NCBI RefSeq assembly: GCF_030867095.1
Contig: NC_081830.1
Location: 240,717 to 304,716 of the forward strand
Origin: Alligator mississippiensis
Taxonomy: Eukaryota
Direction of reading: 5' to 3'
DNA length: 64,000 nucleotides
Shown here in pieces: positions 42,435 to 43,199 of the stretch (the first letter of the stretch is position 1; every line of letters starts with the position of its first letter). The notes beneath the pieces are model-generated. The model worked only from the letters and a program-made list of their open reading frames with translations, made no database searches and was not told the origin of the DNA. Made by a program: the position numbers and the translations under genes.

Positions 42435-43199
42435 TTAACCCTTCCCATCCAGGGCATCTGTGTAGACGGCCACACTGCTGGGCACTGCGGAGACAGAGCT
42501 GTGGTTAGCACAAGAGAACCCAGGTGTCCGGGGCTGTGCACCCCTCCCCCAACTGCCCGACCCCAGGCATCCAGGGGCTGCTCAGCCCCCCCCCCCCGCG
42601 GCACTCACCTTGCGTGTGCTCCTTCCAGATGTGATCCCAGGCTGTGGGGAGAGCAGGGGGTGAGGCCACGCAGTGCCCCCCCACAGCGCCCCACGCTCCC
42701 GCCCCACAGCCCGCCCGCCTTGCCCGCCACCCCCTGCAGTGCCCCGCCCCTCACCGTCGCGGTGGTAGCTGCGCGCCGCCTCCCAGTCCGGGCGGCTCAT
42801 GCCGTCGCGCGGGGCGGCGGGGGGCCCCGGGTCGCTGATGAACGAGAGGCCCCAGCGGTTCTGGAAGATGGCGCCCAGCTGGGGCCGCGGCGGGGGCGCA
42901 CGGCGCGGCGGGACCCAGGCGTCCGGGGCCGGGCGCGGCGGGGGGCGCGGCCGCGCCGTGTCGGGGTCCTCGACGAAGGCGCTGGGGTCCCGCGGGGCTG
43001 CGGGCAGAAGGGGGAGGGGGTAAGCGGCCGCCTGGGCCGGTCTCGCGGTGCGGGCGGCAGCGGGACAGCTAGCCTCCGCGGCGGTACCTGGAGACAGGCG
43101 GTTGGAAACGTCGTGCAGCCCCGCCGCCACCGCCACCTTGTCGCCGCGCGGAGCCCGCGCCGCACCCTCGGGGTCCCGGTTCTCGTCCGCGCCCCGCAT
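42435..43199 (-). CDS. Candidate unannotated 4-exon gene (~146 aa). Exons 43088-43199, 42755-42997, 42609-42641 and 42435-42484.
   Basis: Spliced ORF MRGADENRDPEGAARAPRGDKVAVAAGLHDVSNRLSP | [81 protein letters not shown] | AWDHIWKEHTQ | VPSSVAVYTDALDGKG*. Three GT-AG introns are phase-consistent, with donors ccag|gtaccg, gacg|gtgagg and caag|gtgagt. The ATG is 560 bp from the KCTD13 ATG on the opposite strand, in a shared CpG island. No family recognised. Confidence 0.35.

What the first reader, a model, noticed from the sequence alone, without database searches (positions are those of the whole stretch)
42435..43199. Candidate unannotated 4-exon ORF divergent from KCTD13
A 146-codon ORF survives splicing through three canonical GT-AG introns, including a 33-nt micro-exon (AWDHIWKEHTQ). 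It starts 560 bp from the KCTD13 ATG on the opposite strand in the same CpG island. Human has nothing annotated between KCTD13 and TMEM219 other than the TMEM219 5' UTR. It could be a lineage-specific gene, an alternative 5' leader of TMEM219, or a conserved micro-protein.
Basis: seen in the sequence. Interest (0 to 1): 0.65.

Follow-up and report, generated by a model that had tools for sequence, protein, structure and literature searches.

The report
Alligator NUFIP2-like gene beside KCTD13
The four-exon reading frame is a real gene: the American alligator's shortened copy of an old, unstudied sister gene of NUFIP2 (a stress-granule and FMRP partner protein), whose first three exons the public alligator annotation names wrongly and joins to the neighbouring TMEM219 gene.

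Summary
On the minus strand, exons 43199-43088, 42997-42755, 42641-42609 (33 nt) and 42484-42435 join through three GT-AG, phase-1 introns into a 145-aa ORF. ORF length means little in this 74% GC DNA; homology decides it. The product matches turtle 'NUFIP2-like' protein (BLASTP E 6e-25, continuous across the last two junctions). It has orthologues in skink, frogs (cDNA-backed), caecilian, newt, lungfish, coelacanth, ray-finned fishes, sharks and rays. All 21 aligned family members hit Pfam NUFIP2 at E <= 0.001, though the alligator protein scores 25.8 bits against a cut-off of 27. Exon structure, microexon included, matches Xenopus mRNA versus genome and NUFIP2 isoforms. The head-to-head KCTD13 arrangement recurs in a turtle. 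The window is Alligator mississippiensis. RefSeq XP_059586377/8 ('translation initiation factor IF-2') use exons 1-3 with identical junctions but splice exon 3 onto TMEM219 exon 2, out of frame. The conserved 145-aa product is absent from the protein collection searched. The protein keeps the invariant WGLSFI motif (candidate G3BP-binding site) and a confident C-terminal helix. The PKISYASKVKENL motif, which in human NUFIP2 lies inside the FMRP/Roquin-binding fragment, is degenerate. This is an ordinary new member of a known family, with an annotation correction.

The parts
43088..43199 (-). Exon 1, coding part (ATG at 43199; aa 1-37 plus the first base of codon 38). It encodes the subfamily N-terminal motifs DENRDPE and LHDVSNR.
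   Evidence: 100% match to RefSeq XP_059586378.1 aa 1-37. N-terminal HSP to turtle P0016, E 4e-4.
42998..43087 (-). Intron 1 (90 nt, GT-AG, phase 1). It is in frame and has no stop, so retention would add 30 aa.
   Evidence: The same junction is used in the RefSeq models. The homologous phase-1 intron in Xenopus is shown by mRNA versus genome.
42755..42997 (-). Exon 2 (243 nt). It is a much shortened version of the large family exon. It starts at a degenerate remnant of the FKPPPxFPVD...PKISYASKVKENL motif, contains LGAIFQNRWGLSFI, and ends at ...SYHRD.
42837..42878 (-). Codons 78-91, LGAIFQNRWGLSFI. This is the family's invariant motif. F90 aligns with the second Phe of human NUFIP2 DIFQNQWGLSFI, inferred to be F511.
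   Evidence: Pfam PF15293 hit on aa 77-95. Invariant G79, N84, W86-I91 in 21 sequences. F511 numbering and its reported role.
42642..42754 (-). Intron 2 (113 nt, GT-AG, phase 1).
   Evidence: The junction is used in the RefSeq models. The alignment to the turtle protein is continuous across it.
42609..42641 (-). Exon 3, a 33-nt microexon (AWDHIWKEHTQ). It is homologous to the NUFIP2 microexon EMESIWNLQKQ and the Xenopus microexon EWNLAWTIHKK.
42485..42608 (-). Intron 3 (124 nt, GT-AG, phase 1). The junction to exon 4 is supported by homology only. The RefSeq models instead splice 42609 to 41280.
42435..42484 (-). Exon 4 coding part (VPSSVAVYTDALDGKG plus TAA at 42437-42435). This is the conserved C-terminus of tetrapod orthologues.
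   Evidence: skink APSSVTVYTDTLDGKG; turtle APSRVMVYAEPLDGKG.
42107..42434 (-). Putative 3' UTR ending at the only minus-strand poly(A) signal between the stop codon and TMEM219 (ATTAAA, 42112-42107).
   Evidence: sequence. This is inferred, not shown by transcripts.
43200..43760 (.). Shared CpG-island interval between the two divergent ATGs (putative bidirectional promoter with KCTD13). It contains CACGTG and GCGCATGCGC boxes.
   Evidence: Zero differences to the 98.3%-identical contig L001. Promoter function is inferred.
43761..44016 (+). KCTD13 exon 1 (context: the divergent neighbour).
41349..41498 (-). TMEM219 exon 1 with its own ATG (150 nt, phase 0) (context).
41078..41280 (-). TMEM219 exon 2. 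The RefSeq read-through models use its acceptor and then read it +1 out of the TMEM219 frame.

Best explanation
The locus is the American alligator orthologue of 'NUFIP2-like' (here NUFIP2L). NUFIP2L is an ancient jawed-vertebrate paralogue of NUFIP2 that sits head-to-head with KCTD13 in the block orthologous to human 16p11.2. Shown: a four-exon, all-phase-1 gene encodes a 145-aa protein that is predicted to be mostly disordered. The protein keeps three conserved elements. First, the N-terminal DENRxPE and LHxxxNR motifs. Second, the invariant LGAIFQNxWGLSFI motif. Third, a C-terminal module (DWEAARSYHRD|AWDHIWKEHTQ|VPSSVAVYTDALDGKG) spread over the end of exon 2, a 33-nt microexon and the last exon, which AlphaFold2 predicts as a confident helix. 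Inferred: the gene is transcribed from the CpG island it shares with KCTD13 and ends at ATTAAA 42112-42107, upstream of TMEM219's own promoter and ATG exon. Inferred mechanism (about 50% confidence): like NUFIP2, it docks on the NTF2-like domain of G3BP1/2 through the WGLSF phenylalanine, so it would be a stress-granule or RNP adaptor. The alligator copy has lost most of the large exon. It has only a degenerate remnant of the WxLFKPPPxFPVD...PKISYASKVKENL motif, which in human NUFIP2 lies inside the fragment (aa 255-411) that binds FMRP and Roquin. It would therefore act as a minimal G3BP binder, more like a 'cap' than a bridge. The RefSeq isoforms that join exon 3 to TMEM219 exon 2 are mis-joined or non-productive read-through models, not the functional product.
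For: Structure and frame. Species and existing models: XP_059586378.1 and XP_059586377.1 map at 100% identity to the window and use the junctions 43088/42997 and 42755/42641. Orthology: BLASTP to Pelusios 'NUFIP2-like' gives 85 bits, E 6e-25, spanning both 3' junctions and ending in the same LDGKG stop, and the N-terminus also matches. The exhaustive HMMER search gave 49 hits. They include skink, tortoise, Xenopus NP_001120409 (BC cDNA AAI61130), caecilian, newt 'NUFIP2-like', lungfish, coelacanth, paddlefish, teleosts, shark and rays. Family: Pfam PF15293 hits at E <= 0.001 in all 21 aligned members, although the alligator protein's own 25.8 bits is below the cut-off of 27. hhalign against NUFIP2 proper gives 96.3%, E 1.6e-9. 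G79, N84, W86, G87, L88, S89, F90, I91, Y115 and Y137 are invariant across both subfamilies. Exon structure: spliced Xenopus mRNA contigs versus genome show 4 exons, phase-1 introns and a 33-nt microexon flanked by AG and GT. NUFIP2 isoforms show boundaries at the same aligned positions (P0013-15 skip exon 2, P0050 skips the microexon, P0001/5/6/11 retain the intron after YHTK). Synteny: KCTD13 is divergent from the orthologue in the turtle Natator. A KIF22-like kinesin lies next to the shark orthologue. TAOK2, TMEM219, KCTD13, HIRIP3 and INO80E are in the window. Integrity: a 98.3%-identical contig keeps the ORF and all splice sites, with one missense change. Frame incompatibility with TMEM219. 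Poly(A) signal. Fold: helix 106-129 at pLDDT ~96. Function lead: NUFIP2 F511 is critical for binding the G3BP1 NTF2L domain (preprint 10.1101/2025.11.30.691455), and F511 falls on the F of WGLSF in a 695-aa human sequence recalled from memory. NUFIP2 aa 255-411 binds Roquin and FMRP (PMC5775257).
Against: There is no alligator transcript or peptide evidence for the exon 3 to exon 4 junction. The exact 145-aa product and eight splice or start variants are all absent from the protein collection. The only public alligator models splice exon 3 into TMEM219. The alligator protein alone scores 25.8 bits on Pfam NUFIP2, just under the gathering cut-off of 27. It is 145 aa against 312-537 aa in other tetrapod and lungfish orthologues, and it has lost the otherwise nearly invariant PKISYASK motif. 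That could mean relaxed constraint. The F511 mapping rests on a recalled human sequence, whose length matches the published 695 aa but whose numbering was not verified from a database. The F511 result itself comes from a single preprint. G3BP binding by any NUFIP2L protein is untested. The 17q11.2/16p11.2 ohnologue argument rests on my own knowledge of the human map and was not tested here.
Confidence: 0.82

Rival explanations
1. The exons are mainly an upstream leader or alternative 5' end of TMEM219 (a conjoined or read-through transcription unit), as the RefSeq models suggest, and the 145-aa ORF is incidental.
For: RefSeq XP_059586377.1 and XP_059586378.1 join exon 3 (donor at 42609) to TMEM219 exon 2 at 41280 and continue through TMEM219 exons. 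The two genes are on the same strand, and only ~940 bp separate the stop codon from the TMEM219 ATG. No transcript evidence for exon 4 was found.
Against: The join is frame-incompatible: phase 1 meets an exon that follows a phase-0 intron. The predicted products therefore read TMEM219 exons 2-3 as low-complexity nonsense (GLERAAGRRGRAALL...). That low-complexity sequence is probably the source of the spurious 'IF-2' name (my inference). The models skip TMEM219's own ATG exon. Exon 4 encodes a C-terminus conserved in turtle, skink, frog, caecilian and newt. Xenopus mRNA ends with the homologous exon. An ATTAAA signal lies 323 nt after the stop. Read-through transcripts may still exist as minor, non-productive by-products.
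Confidence: 0.08
2. The alligator copy is a decaying relic of NUFIP2L: still ORF-like and perhaps transcribed from the KCTD13 CpG island, but no longer functional.
For: Exon 2 is about 240 nt, against roughly 750-1000 nt or more in other species. The PKISYASKVKENL motif is replaced by Pro/Arg/Ala-rich sequence typical of GC-biased drift. Pfam scores below its cut-off. The turtle Natator assembly shows three frame disruptions in its copy, which may mean the gene is dispensable in some sauropsids.
Against: The ORF is intact and all six splice dinucleotides are canonical. All ten family-wide invariant residues are retained. The C-terminal 40 aa are about 65-70% identical to turtle and skink, which is not expected without purifying selection on this lineage. 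A second crocodilian-like sequence keeps the ORF. Ray orthologue models (179-183 aa) also lack the central motif, so short forms may be viable, although that depends on predicted gene models.
Confidence: 0.09
3. It is a chance spliced ORF in very GC-rich DNA, where stop codons are rare.
For: 27 ORFs of at least 60 aa in all six frames overlap 41300-44100, and several exceed 200 aa.
Against: BLASTP E 6e-25 to a turtle protein, 49 family hits, and conserved intron positions, intron phases and synteny.
Confidence: 0.01

Closest known systems
NUFIP2 (82-FIP; nuclear FMR1-interacting protein 2), Pfam PF15293
   Same: The two share the invariant (L/I)Gxx(F/L)xNxWGLSFI motif and the C-terminal YH...W/M...Y module. 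The four-exon layout is the same, with a 33-nt penultimate microexon. The phase-1 pattern was shown directly for the alligator model and Xenopus NUFIP2L; for NUFIP2 itself it is inferred from its exon-skipping isoforms. Both are predicted to be mostly disordered.
   Different: This gene belongs to a separate paralogue subfamily (Ala in LGAIFQN, an N-terminal DENRxPE instead of a His/Gln-rich start, and a ...DGKG end instead of ...DGPDQ). It is 145 aa against 695 aa. The WTLFKPPPVFPVDNSSAKIVPKISYASKVKENL motif, which lies inside the FMRP/Roquin-binding fragment aa 255-411, is reduced to a degenerate remnant. It lies next to KCTD13, TMEM219 and TAOK2. By my own knowledge, human NUFIP2 lies next to TAOK1 at 17q11.2.
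Annotated NUFIP2-like orthologues: Xenopus tropicalis LOC100145486 (NP_001120409), Pleurodeles 'FMR1-interacting protein NUFIP2-like', Pelusios A0A8C8S6E5, Chelonoidis XP_032630058, Tiliqua XP_066484735
   Same: The N-terminal motifs, the WGLSFI motif, the C-terminal module and stop position, and the exon structure are the same. The turtle copy has the same KCTD13 neighbour.
   Different: Those proteins are 312-537 aa and keep PKISYASK(L/V)KENL and the GxWESNG start of exon 2. The alligator copy lacks both. None appears to have been studied: 0 papers contain 'NUFIP2-like'.
Short-motif binders of the G3BP NTF2-like domain (USP10 and alphavirus nsP3 FGDF motifs, Caprin-1, UBAP2L)
   Same: This is a resemblance in mechanism only. 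A short Phe-centred motif in a disordered protein is reported to mediate NUFIP2-G3BP1 binding, and the homologous motif is intact here.
   Different: There is no sequence relationship to FGDF motifs. Binding is untested for any NUFIP2L protein. The AF2 model places the motif in short strands (pLDDT ~79), which may instead pack against the C-terminal helix.
Conjoined (read-through) gene models in automated annotation
   Same: The RefSeq alligator isoforms X2 and X3 fuse exons of two adjacent same-strand genes.
   Different: Here the fusion is out of frame for the downstream gene and omits the conserved terminal exon of the upstream gene.

Membership tests
NUFIP2 family (Pfam PF15293) | Significant similarity to the family profile | tested here: inconclusive
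   hmmscan gives E 6e-6 and 25.8 bits, against a gathering cut-off of 27; only aa 77-95 match. However, hhalign against 11 NUFIP2 proteins gives 96.3%, E 1.6e-9. BLASTP to snake NUFIP2 gives E 2e-12, plus E 9e-4 for the C-terminus. All 21 aligned relatives hit PF15293 at E <= 0.001.
NUFIP2 family (Pfam PF15293) | Invariant NxWGLSFI motif | tested here: met
   N84, W86, G87, L88, S89, F90 and I91 are invariant in 21 sequences of both subfamilies.
NUFIP2 family (Pfam PF15293) | C-terminal YH(x)5-6(W/M)...Y module split by a 33-nt microexon, with phase-1 introns | tested here: met
   Y115 and Y137 are invariant. The exon boundaries YHRD|AWDHIWKEHTQ|VPSS align with YHTK|EMESIWNLQKQ|DPKR in NUFIP2 isoforms and with the Xenopus NUFIP2L microexon defined from mRNA and genome.
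NUFIP2 family (Pfam PF15293) | WxLFKPPPxFPVDxSSAKxxPKISYASKVKENL motif (in human NUFIP2 it lies inside the aa 255-411 fragment that binds FMRP and Roquin) | tested here: not met
   Only a degenerate remnant, [24 protein letters not shown], aligns there. No PKISYASK-like sequence was found near the locus by tblastn. The motif is present in nearly all other members.
NUFIP2-like (NUFIP2L) paralogue subfamily | LGAIFQN (Ala, not Asp/Glu), N-terminal DENRxPE, and a tetrapod C-terminus ...VxVYxxxxDGKG* | tested here: met
NUFIP2-like (NUFIP2L) paralogue subfamily | Genomic position in the KCTD13 / 16p11.2-like block | tested here: met
   The gene is divergent from KCTD13 in the alligator and in the turtle Natator. 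The shark copy lies next to a KIF22-like kinesin. The arrangement is not conserved within 10 kb in Xenopus (an NDK-domain gene; TsaD- and AIG1-domain genes in milkfish).
NUFIP2 functional class (FMRP, Roquin and G3BP partner; stress-granule protein) | Physical binding to the FMRP N-terminal domain, Roquin or the G3BP NTF2L domain; stress-granule localisation | not testable with these tools
   Only literature on human NUFIP2 is available.
TMEM219 5' UTR / alternative first exons | The exons splice in frame, or as non-coding leader, onto the TMEM219 coding sequence | tested here: not met
   The RefSeq join 42609->41280 puts TMEM219 exon 2 one base out of frame and skips the TMEM219 ATG exon.

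The most novel reading that the evidence does not exclude
NUFIP2L is an unstudied 2R ohnologue of NUFIP2, retained from sharks to reptiles beside KCTD13 and TAOK2 and lost in mammals (and possibly birds). Crocodilians, and independently rays, would then have trimmed it to a natural 'mini-protein' holding only the G3BP-docking WGLSFI motif and the C-terminal helix. Such a protein would be an endogenous competitor or cap for G3BP-centred condensates that no longer binds FMRP or Roquin.
Probability: 0.3. Interest if true: 0.5.

Novelty: new member of a known kind. Interest (0 to 1): 0.3.

Why it matters
The main value is as an annotation correction. The alligator RefSeq gene is misnamed 'translation initiation factor IF-2', and isoforms X2 and X3 are out-of-frame fusions with TMEM219. 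The conserved 145-aa product is missing from the protein collection searched.

The wider point is that the finding exposes a vertebrate-wide NUFIP2 paralogue with no literature. It sits in the block orthologous to human 16p11.2, and no mammalian copy appeared. That matters for reconstructing the 16p11.2/17q11.2 paralogon.

The naturally minimal alligator and ray forms also mark which NUFIP2 elements are kept when the rest is lost: the WGLSFI motif and the C-terminal helix. These are testable elements for G3BP and stress-granule biology. None of this would strongly surprise a specialist.

Tried and rejected
- **Word-indexed protein searches.** Searches with the 145-aa protein and with a two-sequence C-terminal alignment found nothing. 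The index missed even the turtle orthologue. The family was reached only by querying with a recalled human NUFIP2 C-terminus and then by the exhaustive HMMER job.
- **Structure databases.** The PDB sequence search gave only noise, E >= 0.44. Foldseek of the AF2 model against PDB gave no match, E > 5. The AFDB library was unavailable.
- **Exact-product look-ups.** The unspliced ORF, P0021, P0017, P0055 and P0010 were not on record. For that reason the neighbourhood of NUFIP2 itself (TAOK1 adjacency) could not be tested.
- **Splice and start variants.** Ten forms of the alligator product were looked up by exact sequence (the 145-aa model and a 175-aa intron-1-retained form; eight further splice and start variants). 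All were absent, so no transcript-derived support for exon 4 was obtained.
- **dN/dS against turtle DNA.** The codon-level analysis was abandoned because the Natator assembly has frame disruptions in this gene.
- **Comparison with L001.** With one exonic difference, it has too little power to separate coding constraint from general CpG-island conservation.
- **MCRIP1/2 (FAM195).** I considered a relationship on the basis of a vaguely similar AHEENVRF..EAW motif. I dropped it as unsupported recollection and ran no test.
- **Intron 1 as coding sequence.** The read-through 'SPGT...' resembles turtle 'PSGTWESNG'. I rejected the idea as a two-residue coincidence created by the GT donor. The RefSeq models splice it out, and the Xenopus intron lies at the same position.
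Full report
**1. Checking the observation**

Reading the minus strand of 41300-44300 and splicing the four proposed exons reproduces the finding.
- The exons are 43199-43088 (112 nt), 42997-42755 (243 nt), 42641-42609 (33 nt) and 42484-42435 (50 nt).
- Every intron is GT-AG and phase 1. The introns measure 90, 113 and 124 nt, and the acceptors have clear polypyrimidine tracts.
- The product is 145 aa, followed by TAA at 42437-42435.
- The ATG lies 562 bp from the KCTD13 ATG (43761, + strand). Both are in one CpG island (GC 0.74, CpG observed/expected 0.82).

The ORF by itself is weak evidence. The window runs at 65-80% GC. Twenty-seven ORFs of at least 60 aa overlap 41300-44100 in all six frames, and the unspliced frame is itself open for 210 codons.

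**2. What it is**

Pfam gave one near-threshold hit: NUFIP2 (PF15293), aa 77-95, E 6e-6, 25.8 bits against a cut-off of 27. The word-indexed protein search with the candidate found nothing.

I recognised the motif QLGAIFQNRWGLSFI and a C-terminus like that of human NUFIP2, so I queried with a recalled NUFIP2 C-terminal region. That returned NUFIP2 fragments and a 344-aa 'NUFIP2-like' protein of the turtle Pelusios (P0016). The candidate aligns to P0016 with E 6e-25, continuously across the exon 2/3 and 3/4 junctions and down to the identical ...LDGKG stop. A separate N-terminal HSP (GADENRDPE...LHDVSNRL against GIDENRNPE...LHNLTNRI) has E 4e-4.

An exhaustive HMMER search of 1.84 billion representatives gave 49 hits. 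Source look-ups identified:
- skink XP_066484735;
- Chelonoidis XP_032630058;
- Xenopus tropicalis NP_001120409, backed by cDNA AAI61130;
- the caecilian gene LOC117361256;
- Pleurodeles 'FMR1-interacting protein NUFIP2-like';
- lungfish, coelacanth, paddlefish and sturgeon, teleosts, basking shark and rays.

Motif inspection and alignment separate two subfamilies.
- NUFIP2 proper has LG(D/E)IFQNQWGLSFI, ends in ...DGPDQ and has a His-rich N-terminus.
- NUFIP2-like has LGAIFQNxWGLSFI and an N-terminal DENRxPE. Tetrapod members end in ...DGKG.

The alligator sequence belongs to the second subfamily. Ten residues are invariant across all 21 aligned sequences: G79, N84, W86, G87, L88, S89, F90, I91, Y115 and Y137. 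All 21 hit PF15293 at E <= 0.001. The candidate matches a profile built from NUFIP2 proper alone at 96.3% probability, E 1.6e-9.

**3. Exon structure and synteny**

Two spliced Xenopus mRNA contigs compared with the genome show four exons, phase-1 introns and a 33-nt microexon (EWNLAWTIHKK) flanked by AG and GT.

NUFIP2 itself shows the same boundaries in database isoforms.
- ...PKKKT|EMESVWNLQKQ|DPKR... skips exon 2.
- YHTK|DPKR skips the microexon.
- Several Logan products read into the intron after YHTK.

The window carries TAOK2(-), TMEM219(-), this gene(-), KCTD13(+), HIRIP3(-) and INO80E(+). In the turtle Natator the orthologue is likewise divergent from KCTD13. In the basking shark it lies next to a KIF22-like kinesin.

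From my own knowledge of the human map (not tested here), NUFIP2 lies beside TAOK1 and near TNFAIP1, SEZ6 and ALDOC at 17q11.2. Those genes are the paralogues of TAOK2, KCTD13, SEZ6L2 and ALDOA at 16p11.2. On that basis this gene is most simply the 2R ohnologue of NUFIP2. No mammalian or avian member of the subfamily appeared among the 49 hits.

**4. Existing annotation**

Two hits, XP_059586378.1 and XP_059586377.1 of Alligator mississippiensis, map to the window at 100% identity, which identifies the species. Both are named 'translation initiation factor IF-2'. They then join the exon 3 donor (42609) to TMEM219 exon 2 (41280) and continue through TMEM219 exons.

TMEM219 exon 1 (41498-41349) ends in phase 0, while exon 3 ends in phase 1. 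The TMEM219 part is therefore read one base out of frame as Arg/Ala/Gly/Pro-rich nonsense. That sequence plausibly explains the spurious name.

The conserved 145-aa product and nine other splice or start variants are absent from the 15-billion-protein collection. Two conclusions follow.
- Junctions 1 and 2 have independent support from RefSeq.
- Junction 3 and exon 4 rest on homology only: the skink has APSSVTVYTDTLDGKG and the alligator VPSSVAVYTDALDGKG.

A single minus-strand poly(A) signal (ATTAAA, 42112-42107) lies 323 nt after the stop and about 600 bp before the TMEM219 ATG. That fits a separate transcription unit, though this is inferred.

A 98.3%-identical genomic contig from SRR18112698 keeps the ORF and every splice site, with one missense change, T128M.

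**5. What is unusual in the alligator**

Other tetrapod and lungfish orthologues are 312-537 aa. Nearly all carry WxLFKPxPxFPVDxSSARxxPKISYASK(L/V)KENL. In the alligator, exon 2 is only 243 nt and begins at a degenerate remnant of that motif, [24 protein letters not shown]. No PKISYASK-like sequence lies nearby.

In human NUFIP2 the motif sits at about aa 334-366. That is inside the 255-411 fragment that binds Roquin and FMRP(1-132) directly and in a mutually exclusive way (PMC5775257).

The WGLSFI motif, by contrast, is intact. A preprint reports NUFIP2 F511 as the residue critical for binding the G3BP1 NTF2-like domain (10.1101/2025.11.30.691455). In my recalled 695-aa human sequence, F511 is the Phe of WGLSF, which corresponds to F90 here. 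The length matches the published 695 aa, but the numbering was not verified against a database.

AlphaFold2 run with the family alignment predicts a mostly disordered chain (mean pLDDT 68). It shows a very confident helix at 106-129 (pLDDT ~96), which spans the exon 2/microexon junction, and short strands at 81-83 and 89-91. No PDB fold matches.

**6. Mechanism**

Shown: this is a conserved, intact, correctly spliced member of the NUFIP2-like subfamily.

Inferred, at about 50% confidence: it docks on G3BP1/2 through the WGLSF motif and acts in stress-granule or RNP assemblies. Because the FMRP/Roquin-binding region has degenerated, the alligator protein would be a minimal, possibly capping, G3BP ligand.

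The function of the C-terminal helix is unknown. It is as conserved as the WGLSFI motif across both subfamilies, so it is probably a second docking element.

**7. Rival explanations**

- **TMEM219 leader or read-through.** This is contradicted by the frame incompatibility, the skipped TMEM219 ATG exon, the conserved terminal exon and the poly(A) signal. Minor read-through transcripts may still exist.
- **Decaying relic.** This is possible given the truncation, the sub-threshold Pfam score and a frame-disrupted copy in the Natator assembly. Against it stand the intact invariant residues, the 65-70% identity of the C-terminal module to turtle and skink, and similar short forms in ray gene models.
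- **Chance ORF.** This is excluded by the homology.

**8. Verdict**

The thing itself is an ordinary new member of a known family. It is already annotated as 'NUFIP2-like' or 'uncharacterized LOC' in many species and has no dedicated literature (0 papers for 'NUFIP2-like').

Interest is modest. It rests on the annotation fix, an apparently mammal-lost ohnologue in the 16p11.2-type block, and a naturally minimised form that highlights two conserved NUFIP2 elements.

Noticed in passing
window 34683-37474, 40322-41498, 43761-46308, 59814-60312, 61916-63637: The gene order is TAOK2(-), TMEM219(-), NUFIP2L(-), KCTD13(+)..., HIRIP3(-), INO80E(+). The HIRIP3/INO80E pair lies on the KCTD13 side rather than beyond TAOK2 as in human (human order from my own knowledge). 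This implies a rearrangement within the 16p11.2-type block.
   Followed up: no
window 53158-53250 (+): A weak tblastn hit (E 5.8e-5, 45% over 31 aa) of a recalled SEZ6L2 CUB-domain fragment. It is possibly an exon of a CUB/sushi gene between KCTD13 and HIRIP3.
   Followed up: no
window ~44040-44300: A G-rich minisatellite (repeated GGGGCAGTCAGCGGGGCAGGA-like units on the minus strand) lies in KCTD13 intron 1, directly after exon 1.
   Followed up: no
window 28001-30000: An AT-rich island (GC 0.35-0.40) with several AATAAA sites on both strands sits in an otherwise 60-80% GC window. It is possibly an inserted repeat.
   Followed up: no
window 4754-4779: An (AATA)n microsatellite produces six overlapping AATAAA matches.
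   Followed up: no
L006 (Natator depressus GCA_965152275.1) 12150-13300: In this assembly the turtle orthologue changes frame twice within exon 2 and lacks one C before LDGKG in the last exon. RefSeq XP_074812818 is therefore largely out of frame. The cause is either homopolymer assembly errors in GC-rich DNA or a pseudogene in this species.
   Followed up: partly
L001 (Logan SRR18112698 contig) vs window 40559-44827: The contig is 98.3% identical and colinear, so it is genomic and probably from a close relative or a divergent haplotype. It has zero differences across 43088-44015 (KCTD13 exon 1, the shared CpG island and NUFIP2L exon 1) and none in exon 2 (42755-42997), but 2-4% in the flanks.
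   Followed up: partly
P0056 / P0074 (Mobula birostris, Hemitrygon akajei): The ray orthologue models are only 179-183 aa and also lack the PKISYASK motif. This may be a parallel minimisation of NUFIP2L, or the gene models may be incomplete.
   Followed up: no
window 40322-41280 (-): RefSeq isoforms X2 and X3 differ in their last exon (40835-40713 against 40453-40322). The X3 end (...LVLSGLALLGLCALGLALAAAG...) looks like a transmembrane segment, so it may return to the true TMEM219 frame.
   Followed up: no
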